IMG/VR virus record: IMGVR_UViG_3300037634_007128
Coordinates: 1-25,896 of that record
Length of the DNA: 25,896 nt
DNA from: a virus
Lineage: Duplodnaviria > Caudoviricetes
Reading direction: 5' to 3' (one strand)
Positions 1-8,259 of the stretch are shown one piece after another; position 1 is the first letter of the stretch, and the number at the start of each line of letters is the position of its first letter. The position numbers and the translations under genes were made by a program. The notes beneath the pieces are model-generated. The model was not told the DNA's origin. It ran no database searches and saw only the letters and a program-made list of their open reading frames with translations.

Positions 1-215
1 ACTTCACCATAAATTTTAATTATTTGACCTGGGCGTACAGGCTTGTTGAAGACAACTTCTGAAATCTTCTTTGTCACCATCCTTGGTGTATCGCATGCTT
101 GGCATGCGAATATGGCGCCGGCCTCATCGAGCCAAGCGAGCAATGAGCCACCGAAAAGATTGCCATGGTAGCCAACGTTGGCGGCTTTGCAAAAATGAGT
201 TGAGATAAGTTCCAT
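1..215 (-). CDS. Hotdog-fold acyl-CoA thioesterase (YciA-like), 3' end runs off the window
   Basis: Not in the ORF track. Manual translation from ATG at 215 gives MELISTHFCKAANVGYHGNLFGGSLLAWLDEAGAIFACQACDTPRMVTKKISEVVFNKPVRPGQIIKIYGE, with the HGNLFGGxLLxWxDE and FxKPVxxG motifs of YciA-type thioesterases. Confidence 0.85.
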   Translation of the reverse strand, partial: MELISTHFCKAANVGYHGNLFGGSLLAWLDEAGAIFACQACDTPRMVTKKISEVVFNKPVRPGQIIKIYGE

Positions 216-235: not shown

Positions 236-1423
236 TTATAGCCTTAGTTTATAAAGAGATCCAAAATTCTTACCACCTTTGATATTAACCTTGAATGTTC
301 CCAAGTCATTCTCGGCAAACATCTTTTTTATCTCCGGTATTAGATGCCTTTCATCATCAGTGAAGTCTATAATTATAGAGTCATGTACGCAAAATGCAAT
401 ATGTGATTTATAATTTTCAAGAAATTGATCAATTTTGATTAATTGCCTCAGCAAGACATCGTTAAAGGTGCTTTGGATTATGTAGGATATGCTGAAGTGC
501 TCTGTGGCGGGTATAGCGCGATTATACCGCGTTCTAACTGTGTTTCCGTCCCAATACTCCTTCTTGACCTTGGAGCGATTGTAAAGGCTCTCAGCCTTTT
601 TATCGTATGACCCTGGGTTGTACAACCAGGAGAAGATCTTCTTTTTAGCCTCTTCGCGAGTACAATTATTAAATACGTTTTTTGCATTCCAATCGTGAAT
701 GTCTTCGTCGGGCTGCTCCTCTCCGCACAATGCAAGAAGAGTTCTCAGCTCAGCGCCATTGTAATCCAATTCTACAAACCAATCGTTTGTCGGCTCAACA
801 ATTGTGCGAAAATCCTTCTCCATTGTTAGAAGAGGGAACGTGCCGGGAATATTAATTAGTCTCCCGGTTTTTGATCCAAAAATGCTATACTTGCAATAAG
901 GATCGTATTTCTTATATTTTATAAAAGCCGATTTTCCTCTTTTCGAAATTATTTTGGATCTACCGTTTGCTAGATTAATGTTCAATTTTCGATGCCCGAT
1001 GTCGGTCATGACTTTTGTTAAGTCAAGCAAAAAATCATAATTCTCTGGTTTTTCGTGCGTGCCTATAACATGTTCGGTAATCTGATTCATCAAGTCAAAA
1101 TATTCCAACAAAAAATCTTTTGGAACTAGATCGAAAAAACAATGGTCGCTTAACGAGATCCGACCTAATTTAAAAGATCTATAAAATGCTCTTAATTTTC
1201 TAAGAGATTTATCAAATTCATCTCTAATGTGATCCGGACAAACGAGTTCGGGCGCTTTGCCACTACAATATAGCTTGGCATACTGGACGGTATCCCGGTC
1301 TTTTAAAAATTGCGCATACCTCCAAGCAGCAGACAAATCACTAGGAATAGAATCAAGTAGAATATCACCATCGTAGTAAATTCCAACGCAACTCCCCTTA
1401 TCATCTAAAGGTTGAAATATCAT
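236..1423 (-). CDS. Minimal family-A DNA polymerase-like protein (395 aa)
   Basis: TGRL (aa 186-189), motif A DYNGAELR (D220, E225), DIH (241-243), motif B REEAKKKIFSWLY (R256, K260, F264, Y268), SYIIQS (Q317), motif C VHDS (H347, D348). SD GAGGT upstream of the ATG. Confidence 0.85.
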   Translation of the reverse strand: MIFQPLDDKGSCVGIYYDGDILLDSIPSDLSAAWRYAQFLKDRDTVQYAKLYCSGKAPELVCPDHIRDEFDKSLRKLRAFYRSFKLGRISLSDHCFFDLVPKDFLLEYFDLMNQITEHVIGTHEKPENYDFLLDLTKVMTDIGHRKLNINLANGRSKIISKRGKSAFIKYKKYDPYCKYSIFGSKTGRLINIPGTFPLLTMEKDFRTIVEPTNDWFVELDYNGAELRTLLALCGEEQPDEDIHDWNAKNVFNNCTREEAKKKIFSWLYNPGSYDKKAESLYNRSKVKKEYWDGNTVRTRYNRAIPATEHFSISYIIQSTFNDVLLRQLIKIDQFLENYKSHIAFCVHDSIIIDFTDDERHLIPEIKKMFAENDLGTFKVNIKGGKNFGSLYKLRL

Positions 1424-1433
1424 TTATACCTCT

Positions 1434-2897
1434 TTATAAATCAGTCTCATAAGGATCGTAGCCCAAATCACTATCATCAAAATCCGCATCTGCGTGATGA
1501 TCATAGTCGTAAGAACCGGGCATTGCCCCATACGGACCGGTCGCATGTGGCACTACATCGGCCATGTTTGTTTGCCGGCGTCTCCTTATAGTAACATCTT
1601 TTGCCTCATTAATCAACCTTAATTCTATCTCTTTACTTGTTAAGGAGCCTTGTTTTGTATGATTTCTCGACAATCGACTCTCTAAGTACAACAGTCCATT
1701 CGCCATATTGTATCTGGACAGCTGGGGTCCGTTTCGACTGGGAAGCATATGTCTCTGATAGGCCTGATTAGCCATATCATCAACTTCGGTTCTTGAATAG
1801 AGGCCCTCCTCTTCTATGTTTCTAATCTTGGCGTATAGTTTGAGAAAATATAACTCATCCTTTCGCGAAAAAATTAGACTTCTTGGCGTCGGCAACAATC
1901 TTTCCACCCTAGAGACAGTTGATCCATTTGTGCATGCTGAATAATCGCCACGAAAGGGCTTATAATCATGATATGTGTAATATATATTCAACAAAAATCT
2001 TTTGAACAATTCATATCCAGGAATATGTGCGCGATTGTAGTTGGCTCTAAAAAAGCTATCTGGACTGCTTTGGTTGTGATACCTGTACATTTTAGGTACA
2101 GTCACATCGCAATTAACATCCAAATATAAGCGCCACGGTACGAAACGATCAATATGAAACCCATGCTGTTTAGCGGCAGTTAAAAAGAATTGATAGTTTC
2201 TGCTGTTGATGAACGTATCATATTTTTCCTGATCGACAGAATTGTCCAAATCAGCAATATCCACAACCAGAGCCGATATATGAGGCATGCTAAACCGTGA
2301 TCTCATAAAACCACTTAACGTAATGGGTTGAACGCGAGCGATTCGCTCAAGGGCCAACATCACCTGATCAGTAAACTGGTCGAAATTATTAAAGATGAAT
2401 CTTTTATCCAAATGTAGATCTAGTTGTGGCATATATTTATACACAACTGCCTGACCAATTGCTCGCGAATAACTACCATATGCTTCCTTGTAATTAACCA
2501 TTCCACGATATGCCTTTAATTCCGACAAATACGGATGATCAGCGTCGATCTTTTTGCATGCGACTGCTTTTTGAAACTCTATTGTCAAATTCCTAAATGC
2601 GCGCTCGACCATACGAAAAACTCGGGCCGGTCGTTTCGTATCTGCAGAATTCTTAATCGATACGATTTTTGGAGTGACTGTGCTGGGCCGGTCATATCTC
2701 GGGCATATTGGTATATGAAACCTATCTACTTTTCCATAAAGTATCTTCTCTGCAAAGTGATAATCTTTAAGGGTGCTCTTGCTATCCGCGGTGCCAATGA
2801 TGGAATCATATGCGTGTGCACGATATTTAGTTCTATAAATATAATTGTGGCGCGCCGATCTATTATTTTCTCCCAAAAATGATCTGTATATTGGCAT
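1434..2897 (-). CDS. Hypothetical phage protein (487 aa), basic and aromatic-rich body with acidic Tyr-rich C-terminal tail
   Basis: Long ORF with SD GAGGA before the ATG and a 10-nt gap to the polymerase gene; no family recognised. Confidence 0.8.
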   Translation of the reverse strand: MPIYRSFLGENNRSARHNYIYRTKYRAHAYDSIIGTADSKSTLKDYHFAEKILYGKVDRFHIPICPRYDRPSTVTPKIVSIKNSADTKRPARVFRMVERAFRNLTIEFQKAVACKKIDADHPYLSELKAYRGMVNYKEAYGSYSRAIGQAVVYKYMPQLDLHLDKRFIFNNFDQFTDQVMLALERIARVQPITLSGFMRSRFSMPHISALVVDIADLDNSVDQEKYDTFINSRNYQFFLTAAKQHGFHIDRFVPWRLYLDVNCDVTVPKMYRYHNQSSPDSFFRANYNRAHIPGYELFKRFLLNIYYTYHDYKPFRGDYSACTNGSTVSRVERLLPTPRSLIFSRKDELYFLKLYAKIRNIEEEGLYSRTEVDDMANQAYQRHMLPSRNGPQLSRYNMANGLLYLESRLSRNHTKQGSLTSKEIELRLINEAKDVTIRRRRQTNMADVVPHATGPYGAMPGSYDYDHHADADFDDSDLGYDPYETDL

Positions 2898-2937: not shown

Positions 2938-2945
2938 TAATTAGT
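2938..2945 (-). promoter_or_regulatory. Putative late promoter ACTAATTA
   Basis: Motif overlaps the stop codon of the hub gene (AAC TAA TTA), 40 nt upstream of the 487-aa gene start. Confidence 0.55.
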
Positions 2946-5900
2946 TTTGGCCATCCCACGAATCTTCAACACCGAGCATGTCGCCAATAGCTGTCCCCTC
3001 GATCAGTTCAGCTCCGACTCCAGTTATCCCTCGGGCGATGGCCTCTCCGCCACCGATCTCACCAGCCTCATATTGATCAATAACATCAAGAGTTTCTTTA
3101 ACGGGACCATCGTCAGGTCGACGCCTCTCTACGGTGACGCCCGACGACGACCCTGGGCCGGATGTTTTCTCGTCAGGATCTTTGAGATATTGATCTGCTA
3201 CCGTGCAAGTCGTCACTAGTGGGTCTTCAAATTGCGAATCAAGCTGCGCAATTGGAGATCCATTTTGCGTAAAGGTACAATGTAGGTTTGTGACAAATTT
3301 ACCAGCTTCAACCGAGTTGGTTACTCGGGTAATCATATAATAGCCACCAATACCCATTAAAAACGCCATCGATTCTTCATCTGCTGGGGAACCCATATGT
3401 GGTGACATTCCACTTGGGTCAATGAACACCATCTGGCCTGGAAACAATCTGGCGTTTCCAAACAGCTCAACATCTGCATTATAAATATCCTTAAACTGTC
3501 TGAACTGCTGGTCGGCGCCAGATTTATCCGTGGCAGCCCACCGACCCTCTCGCATATATTTTGCATCAATTCTAGAAAATTTAATTGTCTTAACAAGCCC
3601 CTTGTTGGATCCAATTCTAAAGTGTGGGATCCCTTTTTCCTGATCGTCGTCCACATCGCCCTTTAAGTCATTGGTGACCATGCCCTCGGCGTAAAAAATG
3701 AAGAAGTTAGTATTCTTGTTGGCTGGTATATATGGGGTTCGTGAATTTTCTGTTTTCAAAACGGGCAATTGTTTTTTAAATTTCGACTTGCCAGTTAACA
3801 GGTTTAAATAAAGCCTGTTTTTTGGTAAACTAGCATTTTTTCTTATCTCGCTATTTTGTTTGAAAATCCAACCTTGAATCGCGTTCTCATTATTTCTACC
3901 ATCGAGCGCGTCGGGAAGAAGATCAGCCTCATCCAAGTCCAATTGAGCCCCAGTTGCACTAACATTGTTCAGTCTAACCTTCAGGCCCGGGTATGATGCA
4001 AAGCAGCTGGTCTGTGAATCCTCCAAGACATCAACAACCATGCCCTTTATCACCTCTCTGACAAAATCAACTAATGCATAGGATTTAAGATTTCTGCCAG
4101 AGACATTTGTCATCCACCACTGCAAGAAGAACGTGTAAGATATTGGAATATCTGCTAGGTTAACCTGCATCAATTCTCCTGTTTTGGGCTCGCGAATATT
4201 AATGGGCCCCAAAATAATTGAAACATTGTCCAAAAGGGCCTTATAAGCAGAATGGCCGCCGCGTTCCTTCATCGCCTCAGCTACGATTTGATATGCCGCA
4301 TACACTATATCGCCTAAATAAAAGAAAAAGATTTCATGCGAATGCGGATCATCGTCGGCGTATGTGCCGGCTGTCCAGGCCAACATTTGATTGGTTGTCA
4401 CTTCGCCATCAATTTCGACATATTCAGTATCATTCTCATCCTGGCCGGGCGCAACAGCCTTGCTTAAGCTGAACTCTGTGATTTTTGCACCATTCTCATC
4501 AACGGCGCCGGTCTGGGCAGCTAACGTTAAAGTTGTATTGGTAAAAATATCACCACTATTATCATATTTGGGTGCTGAGTGGATTGTGGGAAGGTCGATC
4601 ATCAACCCCGTACCATCCAGGTCATGCTCCATATTACCGAAGGCATTTTTCCTCATGTTCTTATGACTCGCGGTATTGCCCGAACCTACCTGGTTAGCCC
4701 AGCTACCCACGCCTGATCTATATACGTTATCGGATTCGTCATCTTCATACGTGGCCTTGGTATTGATAGACATATCCGTCCTCGTATGCGTAGCATTTTC
4801 TGGATCCACGACCTGAATGGCGCCATGGCCTGCATTCTGGCGCGACTTCTCAGAATTGAGGTCGGGATCAGCAATAACCATCCCATCTTTGTCTCTTTTG
4901 ACAGACATGGCCGGGTCTTCTTGTTTGCCGAAAGGACCAGCAGATTTCCAAGAAATAATATCATCAATGCCTACAACCAATTTTAAAAGAGTGGGTTGGG
5001 TCAATGTACGTTGAACCACAACATCATGAGGTTTCTGTTTCGCGATGCCGCCACTTTTTGTCTCAGTTGCAGGATCCTTATTTTTTGTATCGTATATATT
5101 ATCATATTGCTCAACCCCGCCAAATTGTAGCCACTGAAAAAGGGCAGAATATGCCTCGGTCATGTCATTTTCGGCTTCCTCTTGTTGCTGTTTCTTAAGC
5201 TCCTTAAGGCTTTCATTGTCGTCTGGGCACAGACTCTCAAATTCGGCGAATATTGCATCTCTTTGTTTTTGTTTTCTTACCCTCCTTGATGTCATTAAAA
5301 TATCAGCCTTTGCATCACTTAAGACTCCATAAATACTTCCTATATAATCGATCGTCAATTCAACAGTGTTGTCGTCGCGAATATCCCACTCATGTTGTGT
5401 CGGCGTCAAATAGAACGAATTAAAAGAATTCTTTACCGCCTCGATCTCAGACGGCGTCATCCACTGTTCCTCCAACCAACCAGCAGTGGTATCCGGAAAG
5501 GCCCAACCACATACTGCTTTAATTTTAAAATTAATCGGAGTAGCGTCATCCGCGGATGGGCTTTTTATCTTCTTATATTGCGTCATAGTAATCAAGTCAA
5601 TATACTTAAAAGGGTAATTCCTTTTATCGTTTGGGTTCCTGGCCCATCGAGCTTTCAAAATATCATTAAAATCATGAAAAAACAATTTTAATTTTGCCTT
5701 GATATCTCTTCTGGAGGAATACGGATTTTTTCCAAAAAAGTCCCAATCAAACGATATAATCCCAGCGCCGACTCCCCTGGAACCTTCATCGGAAAATATG
5801 GCCCGCTCTATAGCATCGGCACCTTTACCAAAAGCAGCAGCAGTGCCGCCGGGATATCCTCCCCCGAGGGCGCCCGCGGCGCTCTGTGCTGAAGATAGAA

Positions 5901-8259
5901 TATTATTAAAAAATGGTACCTCTAACTCAACTGGGGTGCCGGCTTCGAAGCCAGAGCCATATTCATACGGAAACACTTTATACAACCTAATCATAGGCAA
6001 CAATTTAGATAAAGTAGCAGGACTCATACTATCGAATCCATACGACTTTTCTTCGTCGTCGTCCCATGGTCCAGAAAAGTTTGGATTATACACCAAGCCG
6101 TTTACAAGCGTGCTAGGCGATCCATGCACCATGTAAATTCCACCGCCGCCTTTCCGGCCAGTGTTTCCCCTGCGTAAAGTATAGGGTGACATATAAGAAT
6201 CAAGAGTCTCACCATCAGCTGTTTTGCCTAATCGGACCATATTATAGGCAGCTAGCTGGCCCATTCGGGCCAGCAAATAACACTGGTCCTGAAAGCGCGC
6301 TTTTGCTGCAGCCTCTGCAGCCTCAACATCGGGAATACCTTCATAGTCACTTTTGAAGGCGTCACCAACATCTCCTGCATCAGAATATGCTTGAGCTGTT
6401 TCTGCGGCAGTAGCGGCCGCCTGAAGGGCTGCCTCCTTTGCTTCTTCATCGTCGCCGGCAATTATCTCACCATTGGCTTCAATGGAGGCGGCCAAATATG
6501 AAGAGGCCATCTCATCTGCGACACGCGCTCCGCCGCCAAAGCCTGCGGTCTGCTGGCCATCGTCCATGTCTGCCATGGTTTCGATATAAGCGCGCTCTAA
6601 AGCCCCGCGATATTCAAAATATTGCTGAAGCTCCGCAAGATACTTATACTGATCTTGCAAGTTCGTTATTATACCCGCGAGTTCCTGCTGAACCGGTCCA
6701 GGAGCTTCGGCAGTACCCCAAGCAGTCCATACGGCCTCGTTCTCATTGACCACGGCAGTAACGCCTGTTTTAAAACCGACACCGGGGTACCATGCAAATG
6801 GGCCCGCGGGAGCGTCATCGATCCGGTCAAATTTTGCTCGATCATATTGAATAGCCTGCAAGGTGCCTTTCTGATGATTATAGCCTGGAGACGAGATCCA
6901 TTTTACAACAGCCGACGTGGCGCTGGGGCCCAAATATGAAGATGGGAACCTGCTCATATCGATGGCGGCGGCCAAATCATACCAATCCGTCCAGCCGGTT
7001 TTTTGACCAGCTTGCGAAACATAGTCCGGATTGGCATTCATCTCATCGCGTGCTTCAATGATATCATTAATCATCCCTTTCACATATGCCAATTGTTCTT
7101 TCACAGGATATCGTGCAATTATCTCACTTGGCGTGAGGCCATACATATTTTTCCAATTACCTATGCGCTGGCCGTCAGTGATGCCGTCTTCGACGGTGTG
7201 GGCAGTCGTATCGATGCACCACAAGCGCTGCTCCACAATCGACTCCTTCATTCCAGATTTGGTAGTGAGGACTTGCATGCCATTGAAGGCATTTCGAGAT
7301 GAGTTTATGCCGCTCGAAAACCACGACTCGCCAGTCGACTGTCCTTGCCAGCAATCGTGTTCCAAGTTTCCATTAACCTTTAAATTCCAATCAAAATATC
7401 CATAATAATCGCCGCCACTGCTGCTTTTGTTCGCAAAACTATCTGGTCCATAAAAATTAGAGCCACCAGTTTTTATACTCTCCCAAAACGCTCTAAGTTC
7501 GTTGTTGTTACAAAACGTTCCATGATATTTATATTTACTTGATTCAAAGAAATCAGATATCAGGGCCGGGTCTCTCCAAATTGGCACATAACTGTCCCCG
7601 TGGCTCGACATCGCAACCCGATCGTCCGCGGGGGAGGAGGAAATCTCTTCACTAAGCTGTGCATGAACATTAACTGCGTCCAAGCCGCGGCCGCGAAACA
7701 ACAATTCATCATTGGGCTTATAGCCATTGACTTCTGCGTCAACATCTGAATTTGCTTTTATACTATAAATGTATCGCTGTGGACTGACATCAGGGAAAGC
7801 CATTCCGTTGGCATATCGACGCCCGCCCGGTGCAGCAATCTTAGTTATAGCATATGAGCCGGCCTTGTTGACAACCTGATCTGTTATTGTGTACGTGCTG
7901 TCTTCGGACAGGTGTGTGGTTGAACCTATCACGCCATATGACACAGTATCGTCAAACCAATCCTGCTCCCAGGTGTCGGACGCGTAATGCTCGGCGCGCC
8001 TTTCGATACTCCACTTTTTGTGGCCGAAGGAGTCATGATAGGCTGTCTCGGAGATCTTGGGCCCATTGGTATACATTGATAAGCCCATCATAGCGTTCGC
8101 AACGCTGCCATTCCCATCGGACTCGTTATCAGATGACCGCAACAGCTCAAAAGTACATTGAGTTGTTTGAGTAATTTTGGCATGCCCGCCAGAGCCAGGA
8201 CGGTTACCTTTTGCGGGCAGTCCATAATACGTCAATAGTATTGATACACCCTTTCCCAT
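2941..8259 (-). CDS. Baseplate hub-like protein (T4 gp27 / P2 gpD-like C-terminus) with very long N-terminal extension (1772 aa)
   Basis: Follows the LysM gene. The C-terminus YNADVELFGNARLFPGQMVFIDP...GIGGYYMITRVTNSVEAGKFVTNL fits the hub/late-control-D pattern. SD GAGGT. Confidence 0.65.
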   Translation of the reverse strand: MGKGVSILLTYYGLPAKGNRPGSGGHAKITQTTQCTFELLRSSDNESDGNGSVANAMMGLSMYTNGPKISETAYHDSFGHKKWSIERRAEHYASDTWEQDWFDDTVSYGVIGSTTHLSEDSTYTITDQVVNKAGSYAITKIAAPGGRRYANGMAFPDVSPQRYIYSIKANSDVDAEVNGYKPNDELLFRGRGLDAVNVHAQLSEEISSSPADDRVAMSSHGDSYVPIWRDPALISDFFESSKYKYHGTFCNNNELRAFWESIKTGGSNFYGPDSFANKSSSGGDYYGYFDWNLKVNGNLEHDCWQGQSTGESWFSSGINSSRNAFNGMQVLTTKSGMKESIVEQRLWCIDTTAHTVEDGITDGQRIGNWKNMYGLTPSEIIARYPVKEQLAYVKGMINDIIEARDEMNANPDYVSQAGQKTGWTDWYDLAAAIDMSRFPSSYLGPSATSAVVKWISSPGYNHQKGTLQAIQYDRAKFDRIDDAPAGPFAWYPGVGFKTGVTAVVNENEAVWTAWGTAEAPGPVQQELAGIITNLQDQYKYLAELQQYFEYRGALERAYIETMADMDDGQQTAGFGGGARVADEMASSYLAASIEANGEIIAGDDEEAKEAALQAAATAAETAQAYSDAGDVGDAFKSDYEGIPDVEAAEAAAKARFQDQCYLLARMGQLAAYNMVRLGKTADGETLDSYMSPYTLRRGNTGRKGGGGIYMVHGSPSTLVNGLVYNPNFSGPWDDDEEKSYGFDSMSPATLSKLLPMIRLYKVFPYEYGSGFEAGTPVELEVPFFNNILSSAQSAAGALGGGYPGGTAAAFGKGADAIERAIFSDEGSRGVGAGIISFDWDFFGKNPYSSRRDIKAKLKLFFHDFNDILKARWARNPNDKRNYPFKYIDLITMTQYKKIKSPSADDATPINFKIKAVCGWAFPDTTAGWLEEQWMTPSEIEAVKNSFNSFYLTPTQHEWDIRDDNTVELTIDYIGSIYGVLSDAKADILMTSRRVRKQKQRDAIFAEFESLCPDDNESLKELKKQQQEEAENDMTEAYSALFQWLQFGGVEQYDNIYDTKNKDPATETKSGGIAKQKPHDVVVQRTLTQPTLLKLVVGIDDIISWKSAGPFGKQEDPAMSVKRDKDGMVIADPDLNSEKSRQNAGHGAIQVVDPENATHTRTDMSINTKATYEDDESDNVYRSGVGSWANQVGSGNTASHKNMRKNAFGNMEHDLDGTGLMIDLPTIHSAPKYDNSGDIFTNTTLTLAAQTGAVDENGAKITEFSLSKAVAPGQDENDTEYVEIDGEVTTNQMLAWTAGTYADDDPHSHEIFFFYLGDIVYAAYQIVAEAMKERGGHSAYKALLDNVSIILGPINIREPKTGELMQVNLADIPISYTFFLQWWMTNVSGRNLKSYALVDFVREVIKGMVVDVLEDSQTSCFASYPGLKVRLNNVSATGAQLDLDEADLLPDALDGRNNENAIQGWIFKQNSEIRKNASLPKNRLYLNLLTGKSKFKKQLPVLKTENSRTPYIPANKNTNFFIFYAEGMVTNDLKGDVDDDQEKGIPHFRIGSNKGLVKTIKFSRIDAKYMREGRWAATDKSGADQQFRQFKDIYNADVELFGNARLFPGQMVFIDPSGMSPHMGSPADEESMAFLMGIGGYYMITRVTNSVEAGKFVTNLHCTFTQNGSPIAQLDSQFEDPLVTTCTVADQYLKDPDEKTSGPGSSSGVTVERRRPDDGPVKETLDVIDQYEAGEIGGGEAIARGITGVGAELIEGTAIGDMLGVEDSWDGQN

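What the first reader, a model, noticed from the sequence alone, without database searches (positions are those of the whole stretch)
236..1423. Stripped-down family-A polymerase: intact active site, apparently no thumb and no exonuclease
Seen: all PolA catalytic motifs occur in only 395 aa (TGRL; D220 and the steric-gate-position E225; R256/K260/F264/Y268; Q317; HD348). The segment LTKVMTDIGHRKLNIN (aa 135-150), which I align by eye to the helix-plus-GVxID element opening the Pol I thumb, is only ~35 aa from TGRL, versus roughly 110 aa in Pol I. The fingers after motif B are also shortened, motif B ends YN instead of YG, and the N-terminal ~130 aa show no Exo I/II/III motifs. Established: the thumb grips primer-template and confers processivity, and short PolA relatives in mobile elements (TV-Pol family; SCCmec CCPol with partner MP) are linked to priming. 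Inference: this is unlikely to be the replicase. It may be a primase-like, protein-primed, end-processing or template-independent DNA-synthesising enzyme that needs a partner subunit. The retained Glu gate favours dNTP over NTP use.
Basis: partly seen in the sequence, partly recalled or inferred. Interest (0 to 1): 0.8.

Follow-up and report, generated by a model that had tools for sequence, protein, structure and literature searches.

The report
Miniature second phage DNA polymerase (divPolA1)
This phage gene encodes a cut-down but strongly conserved family A DNA polymerase of a type described in 2024 (divPolA1), which related phages keep beside a full-size replicase and which most likely fills short gaps during replication, although its activity is untested.

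Summary
All listed motifs are at the stated residues. The thumb is a stub of about 25 residues, not absent, and residues 1-128 are a shrunken, inactive 3'-5' exonuclease fold (model pLDDT 94.6; Klenow Z 21, 375 of 395 residues aligned). The gene is not decayed: hundreds of relatives of about 395 aa, D220 in 242 of 242, dN/dS about 0.09.

It belongs to divPolA1 (Yutin et al. 2024), shown by profile match to the Immutovirus type protein, shared deletions, a tree and the same gene order. Five of six near-complete relatives encode DnaE, and all six a DnaG-like primase, so it is probably neither the replicase nor the main primase.

Best guess (0.45): a distributive gap-filler working with the nearby stand-alone 5' nuclease, i.e. 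a split Pol I. The 487-aa neighbour weakly matches an M15-peptidase fold and is an unlikely subunit. Added here: a sigma-70-type promoter inside that neighbour's 3' end in 68 of 78 loci (not clear in this window), and a different active-site signature in the Immutovirus branch. The scan found this family before on other DNA.

The parts
236..1423 (-). divPolA1-type miniature family A DNA polymerase, 395 aa
1040..1423 (-). vestigial 3'-5' exonuclease fold (about aa 1-128), catalytic acidic residues not conserved
   Evidence: structural alignment starts at model residue 1 against Klenow 352 and Bst 316; conservation
902..976 (-). basic thumb stub (aa 150-174), two short helices
857..868 (-). TGRL motif (R188, equivalent of Pol I R668)
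   Evidence: R in 241 of 242
749..766 (-). motif A, D220 to E225 (catalytic Asp and steric-gate position)
   Evidence: D 242 of 242; E 216, D 23 of 242
617..658 (-). motif B, R256/K260/F264/Y268-N269
   Evidence: R 241, K 242, F 217, Y 238 of 242
380..385 (-). motif C, H347-D348
   Evidence: H 235, D 241 of 242
1428..1433 (-). ribosome-binding-site-like AGAGGT in the 10-nt gap before the start codon
   Evidence: read from the sequence
1588..1618 (-). weak promoter-like site (score 6.5, under the threshold of 12) where relatives carry a clear sigma-70-type site; doubtful in this window
1434..2897 (-). 487-aa upstream gene, last gene of the tail block; aa about 54-280 weakly resemble an M15/Hedgehog peptidase fold with the zinc ligands not conserved
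   Evidence: homologue present in 77 of 78 loci
3..215 (-). start of a 4HBT thioesterase gene, cut by the contig end; also follows the polymerase in the closest relative L001

Best explanation
The gene encodes a family A DNA polymerase with intact catalytic motifs, a thumb stub and an exonuclease fold that has lost its catalytic residues, and it most likely acts as a distributive, non-proofreading gap-filler working with the phage's stand-alone 5' nuclease, in effect a Pol I split into two genes. Shown: fold, motif conservation, purifying selection, fixed position ahead of gp32-RecA-5' nuclease-DnaB in relatives, and a separate DnaE and DnaG-like primase in relatives. Inferred: it is made early from a host-polymerase promoter, binds primer ends weakly, adds a few dNTPs at a time without displacing strands, and so replaces RNA primers or repairs short gaps that DnaE handles poorly.
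For: Pol I fold is the best structural match. Catalytic residues are near-invariant in 242 sequences. Median dN/dS 0.089 over 61 close pairs of relatives. A 5' nuclease gene lies downstream in 40 of 40 loci with at least 7 kb held, with gp32 and RecA in 40 of 40 and DnaB in 33 of 40; the same order holds in Immutovirus, phage Mel-JY01 and the 484-kb phage LR756508. DnaE in 5 of 6 relatives; primase homologue in G004 and 5 of 5 others. Promoter-like site of the gp32 class upstream in 68 of 78 loci against 0-2 of 44-66 for five structural genes. Thumb-truncated Pol I stays active with lower processivity and fidelity (Minnick 1996, as cited in Rice preprint 10.1101/2022.12.02.518924). Klenow S769, F771 and R841, tied to strand displacement (PMC10520511), have no conserved counterparts by sequence position.
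Against: No activity has been measured. Hosts have their own Pol I (general knowledge). Immutovirus has a full-size PolA and Mel-JY01 a PolB; T7 and T4 fill gaps with such replicases (recalled), yet these phages keep divPolA1, which suggests a job replicases cannot do. The polymerase and the nuclease are in separate predicted transcription units, since gp32 has its own promoter-like site. The gene most tightly coupled to it is a tubulin-like gene, not the nuclease (73 of 73 loci, median gap -4 nt). The Immutovirus branch has His at the gate, no motif B Arg and YD in motif C, so one job may not fit the whole family. The window itself shows neither the downstream genes nor a clear promoter.
Confidence: 0.45

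Rival explanations
1. A starter polymerase: it would add a short DNA stretch to DnaG RNA primers or to RecA-made D-loop ends and hand over to the replicase, as eukaryotic Pol alpha does; this would free the phage to swap its replicase between families A, B and C.
For: It is kept at a fixed place while the regular polymerase varies (PMC11348598 section 13; here DnaE, PolA and PolB in different relatives). Inactive exonuclease and predicted low processivity fit. RecA and gp32 are always nearby.
Against: No direct evidence. The primase gene lies far away in the genome. DnaE extends RNA primers itself (general knowledge).
Confidence: 0.2
2. A primer-independent DNA primase of the CcPol-MP (PolA-SSB) kind that would use gp32 or another partner for repriming or origin firing.
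For: [quoted passage not shown] An SSB and a helicase are encoded close by.
Against: A DnaG-like primase is present in 6 of 6 relatives examined. The exonuclease fold is kept from its first strand, whereas S. aureus CcPol lacks most of it. No small OB-fold gene was recognised next to the polymerase, and gp32 has its own promoter-like site.
Confidence: 0.13
3. A special job tied to the co-transcribed tubulin-like protein or to genome ends, for example finishing terminal repeats or positioning DNA.
For: The tubulin-like gene follows in 73 of 73 marine loci with overlapping stop and start. One complete relative has direct terminal repeats.
Against: No similar gene was detected beside divPolA1 in Immutovirus. 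In the window and L001 other genes intervene. The tubulin identity is only a lead here.
Confidence: 0.1
4. It is the true replicase, made processive by an unknown partner, and the regular polymerase is accessory.
For: Yutin et al. note that its neighbourhood is more replication-like than that of the regular polymerases.
Against: No proofreading residues and only a thumb stub, for genomes of 145-190 kb and one of 484 kb; a full-length DnaE with a PHP domain is present.
Confidence: 0.05
5. A single-subunit RNA polymerase or RNA primase, as suggested for divPolA2.
For: No sigma factor was found among 143 ORFs of G004. Motif C reads HDS as in T7 RNA polymerase (recalled). The sister branch has His at the gate.
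Against: E or D at the gate in 239 of 242. T7 RNA polymerase scores Z 9.8 against 21.0 for Klenow. HDS also occurs in canonical PolAs. No similarity to divPolA2.
Confidence: 0.03

Closest known systems
divPolA1 (Yutin, Tolstoy, Mutz, Wolf, Krupovic, Koonin 2024, Virol J 21:200, PMC11348598); type example Flavobacterium phage immuto_3-5A QQO91919
   Same: Conserved palm, truncated thumb, inactivated exonuclease fold, second polymerase beside a regular one, same gene order from tail sheath to DnaB, homologous over 280 columns with nearly the same deletions.
   Different: Only 26% identical to QQO91919 over 231 aa; 395 versus 441 aa; keeps TGRL, the Glu gate, motif B Arg and HD where the Immutovirus branch has SRP, His, Tyr and YD; followed by a tubulin-like gene in relatives. 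Probably the PolC-associated branch that the paper lists as cluster univ_PolA.17, whose sequences could not be fetched.
Bacterial Pol I large fragment (Klenow; Bst and Taq with inactive 3'-5' domain)
   Same: Best structural match; all polymerase motifs; inactive exonuclease fold as in Bst and Taq.
   Different: Lacks about 83 aa of thumb and about 34 aa of fingers; no fused 5' nuclease, which is a separate gene nearby in relatives.
CcPol-MP and PolA-SSB primases; TV-Pol group (Rice preprint 10.1101/2022.12.02.518924; Iyer 2008 known only through that text)
   Same: Short mobile-element PolA with shortened thumb, near SSB and helicase genes.
   Different: Exonuclease fold retained; no adjacent small OB-fold partner recognised; lytic phage with its own DnaG-like primase; no activity data.
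divPolA2 of barbaviruses and vibriophages (AUR84708)
   Same: Second, thumb-deficient PolA in a phage.
   Different: No sequence match (hhalign probability 0.2); the paper gives it a novel N-terminal domain and a variable context.

Membership tests
divPolA1 | Palm with main catalytic residues conserved | tested here: met
   D220 242/242, D348 241/242, K260 242/242
divPolA1 | Truncated thumb | tested here: met
   39 aa versus 122 in E. coli Pol I and about 36 in QQO91919; model
divPolA1 | 3'-5' exonuclease fold present but inactivated | tested here: met
   Alignment from residue 1 to Klenow 352; read without gaps this puts Q4 and L6 at D355 and E357 (inference); no Exo motifs conserved
divPolA1 | Homology and common descent with the described members | tested here: met
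   hhalign probability 97.1 to QQO91919 versus 33.4 to the same phage's regular PolA; 98.4 between profiles; tree splits 31 short from 12 canonical PolAs at 100/98 (long branches, small outgroup)
divPolA1 | Genome also encodes a regular polymerase of family A, B or C | tested here: inconclusive
   The window's own record is only 25.9 kb. Met in relatives: DnaE in 5 of 6
divPolA1 | Conserved replication genes downstream (gp32, RecA, 5' nuclease, DnaB) | tested here: inconclusive
   The contig ends 235 nt after the gene. Met in relatives including the closest, L001, for gp32, RecA and the nuclease
divPolA1 | Identity with the paper's PolC-associated members (QDP51333, QDP62079, QDP63370) | not testable with these tools
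   MK892784 is not in the collection; the other two were not tried; one search returned no matching accession
PolA-SSB primases (CcPol-MP) | Small OB-fold SSB gene next to the polymerase, ahead of a helicase, in a recombinase-bearing element | tested here: not met
   The next gene is a thioesterase, tubulin-like or other gene; gp32 lies further on under its own promoter-like site
PolA-SSB primases (CcPol-MP) | Primer-independent synthesis | not testable with these tools
   needs an assay
TV-Pol | Sequence signature and N-terminal domain of the group | not tested
   no TV-Pol sequence was fetched
divPolA2 | Sequence homology and novel N-terminal domain instead of the exonuclease fold | tested here: not met
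T7-like RNA polymerases | No acidic steric gate in motif A (Gly in T7, recalled) | tested here: not met
   E225; E or D in 239 of 242

The most novel reading that the evidence does not exclude
divPolA1 is a dedicated starter enzyme, either priming DNA de novo or acting as a phage counterpart of Pol alpha that extends primers and recombination ends. It would be the fixed core of the replisome that lets these phages exchange their main polymerase among families A, B and C, and its two branches (Glu gate versus His gate) could differ in making DNA or RNA starts.
Probability: 0.2. Interest if true: 0.75.

Novelty: new member of a known kind. Interest (0 to 1): 0.32.

Why it matters
The family was described from 14 genomes and has no measured activity in the papers found. 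It is far larger: 340 clusters at 50% identity match at E up to 1e-30, and it extends to a cultured Microcystis phage and a 484-kb phage. At 395 aa it is a natural minimal Pol I, useful for asking what the thumb and finger tips contribute, and cultured relatives make the function testable. This copy itself is an ordinary member.

Tried and rejected
Decayed deletion: rejected (length conservation, dN/dS, invariant residues). Longer or fused forms: a search of 708-2020-aa proteins gave only 18 weak hits (E at best 4.6e-10), all with ordinary PolA domain sets; weak evidence by the tool's own note. Complex prediction of the L001 polymerase with its tubulin-like neighbour: no answer, score 0.00, neither for nor against binding. 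The 487-aa neighbour was not tested in a complex. Tubulin identity of the downstream gene: ESM Atlas lead only; no PDB sequence hit and 1 of 53 members with a weak Pfam Tubulin hit; I did not fold it. Late-gene reading (gene at the end of the virion operon): dropped after the promoter scan. C-terminal clamp-binding motif: tails are not of the QLxLF type (recalled consensus), and no beta-clamp gene was found in 5 of 5 relatives. Toprim_2 missed the primase in 4 of 5 genomes; it was found by direct search. No PolB in G001-G006. Single-sequence PDB search was uninformative. No CcPol structure appeared in the fold searches, which does not exclude a relation. Literature searches found no functional study of divPolA1.

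Full report
Setting. The window is a 25.9-kb virus record holding the head and tail genes of a T4-like myophage: gp23 capsid, sheath, gp19-like tube and baseplate hub. The polymerase is the last complete gene on the minus strand, 10 nt after a 487-aa gene and 20 nt before a thioesterase gene cut by the contig end.

Observation. Against E. coli Pol I, the thumb interval is 39 aa instead of 122 and the motif B to Gln interval 49 instead of 83. The AlphaFold model is confident (mean pLDDT 94.6, pTM 0.92). It aligns along its whole length with Pol I large fragments: Klenow 1d9d Z 21.0, rmsd 3.3, 375 residues, model 1-391 on chain 352-928; T7 RNA polymerase only Z 9.8. So the N-terminus is a shrunken exonuclease fold and the thumb is a stub of two short, basic helices.

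Not a relic. The homologue search gave 2108 hits among 3804 candidates; the best 120 are all 393-404 aa. The profile search found 340 clusters at 50% identity with E up to 1e-30. I aligned the query with 241 of 270 fetched hits, leaving out 29 outside 360-420 aa: D220 242/242, K260 242, R188 241, R256 241, Q317 241, D348 241, gate E 216 or D 23. Nei-Gojobori dN/dS over 61 close pairs of related loci has median 0.089, similar to gp32 at 0.065; the window-L001 pair is saturated. The pairs are not independent.

Identity. A search for 'divPolA' found Yutin et al. 2024. I read the abstract, sections 13 and 14, a methods passage and searched rows of supplementary files 1 and 3 (file 1 was cut when stored; figures not seen). 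divPolA1 is described from 14 phages of 155-190 kb: conserved palm, truncated thumb, inactivated exonuclease, beside a regular polymerase of family A, B or C. The type protein QQO91919 matches our profile at probability 97.1 over 279 columns, nearly without gaps across the thumb; the same phage's regular PolA scores 33.4 and divPolA2 0.2. Profile to profile gives 98.4. A tree of 43 cores separates 23 marine and 8 Immutovirus-like proteins, as two sister groups, from 12 canonical PolAs at 100/98. Seven rows (T7, Zuko, P0413, P0416, P0426, P0177, P0226) were left out because my motif anchor failed, and long branches call for caution. Gene order agrees: sheath, tube, hub, tape measure, a conserved gene, small wedge gene, large gene, one more gene, polymerase, then gp32, RecA, 5' nuclease, DnaB in Immutovirus; the part from the small gene onward is also seen in Microcystis phage Mel-JY01 and the 484-kb phage LR756508 (read from ORFs, unannotated). 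The three marine PolC-bearing members of the paper form cluster univ_PolA.17; this protein probably belongs there, but I could not fetch them.

Context in relatives. Of the best 80 of 594 confirmed viral loci, a 279-aa gene follows in 73 of 73 with at least 1 kb held downstream, and gp32, RecA and a stand-alone 5' nuclease in 40 of 40 with at least 7 kb. DnaE-type polymerases of about 1140 aa occur in G002-G006; G001, the closest relative, is 85% complete and lacks both DnaE and DnaB, so the region is probably missing. The complete genome G004 encodes DnaE with a PHP domain, DnaB, an SbcCD-like nuclease and a primase; no ligase, clamp or sigma factor was seen among 143 ORFs scanned, out of 158 of at least 95 aa in the first 172 kb. 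The primase is 35% identical to the annotated Immutovirus DnaG and present in 5 of 5 other relatives.

Expression. Gaps before the polymerase are tiny (median 9 nt), which first suggested a late gene. A weight matrix trained on the TTGACA-17-TATAAT-like sites in front of gp32 finds a site scoring at least 12 within 300 nt upstream of the polymerase, inside the upstream gene, in 68 of 78 loci. Controls: 1/57, 0/55, 0/58, 2/66 and 0/44 for five structural genes, and 1/81 and 7/81 inside the polymerase. Caveats: many sites coincide with a D...YI codon pattern of the upstream protein, loci are related, and the window itself has only a 6.5 site; L001 has an 18.5 site about 408 nt upstream and L056 none. 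The inference is a separate unit read by host RNA polymerase together with the replication genes.

The 487-aa neighbour. It folds confidently (pLDDT 85.4). The top 12 PDB matches are all M15/VanX/Hedgehog-type peptidase folds over aa about 54-280, at Z 4.9-7.8, which is under the tool's reliability line but consistent. The H-x6-D and xxxH zinc ligands (motif recalled) are not kept: His206 in 3 of 53 and Arg at the last His position in 51 of 53. Three unnamed viral models match it at full length. It reads as a tail-associated inactive peptidase-like protein, not a polymerase subunit (inference).

Mechanism. Intact catalysis, an acidic gate, a thumb stub, short fingers and no proofreading predict short, distributive DNA synthesis from a primer. 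Thumb-truncated Pol I is active but less processive (Minnick 1996, seen only as cited in the Rice preprint, of which I read part 1 of 4 and passages). The steric-gate and strand-displacement residues are taken from passages of PMC10520511. With a constant 5' nuclease nearby and DnaE as replicase, a split Pol I is the most economical reading (0.45). The main objection is that phages with a regular PolA or PolB keep the gene too, and that the Immutovirus branch has a changed active site (SRP, His gate, no motif B Arg, YD). That leaves room for a starter role (0.2) or CcPol-like de novo priming (0.13). CcPol lacks most of the exonuclease fold (PMC10201439 passages), unlike this protein.

Verdict. 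A real and conserved gene, a new member of the described but uncharacterised divPolA1 family. Earlier notes of this scan reached the same family on other genomes; my identification came before that look-up. Searches found no functional study. Interest 0.32.

Noticed in passing
L001:12803-13642 and homologues in L002-L080 (beyond the window's end): Conserved 279-aa gene coupled to the polymerase, with an N-terminal GxGxxG motif; ESM Atlas suggests a tubulin/FtsZ-like fold. Earlier scan notes describe it.
   Followed up: partly
leaders of gp32 genes, e.g. L005 and L031 just upstream of gp32: A conserved hairpin with a GAGATTTG-like loop lies between the promoter-like site and the ribosome-binding site of gp32; possible translational operator.
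   Followed up: no
3' end of homologues of window 1434-2897 in L002-L080: Sigma-70-type promoter-like site embedded in coding sequence, often read as a D...YI protein motif.
   Followed up: partly
window 1434-2897 (-): 487-aa protein with a possible zinc-less M15/Hedgehog peptidase fold; function unknown.
   Followed up: partly
L090:5359-6717 (LR756508, 484 kb) and L091:11947-13173 (Microcystis phage Mel-JY01): divPolA1 with the same gene order in a huge phage (with DnaE) and in a cultured cyanobacterial phage (with PolB); neither is among the 14 genomes named in the paper's figure legend.
   Followed up: yes
L082:1-1326 and P0293-P0412: The Immutovirus branch has His at the steric gate, Tyr for the motif B Arg and YD in motif C; it may differ in sugar selectivity.
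   Followed up: partly
window 2941-8259 (-): 1772-aa gene with no Pfam or PHROG match; homologues range from about 700 to 1850 aa at a fixed place in the tail block.
   Followed up: no
G004, L097-L098: A block of about 20 sugar-biosynthesis and glycosyltransferase genes; elsewhere the genome has GroEL, ClpP, peptide deformylase and a Mom-like gene.
   Followed up: no
L005:11318-13693, L006, L007, L012: A 790-aa gene without a Pfam match is inserted between the polymerase and the tubulin-like gene in four loci.
   Followed up: no
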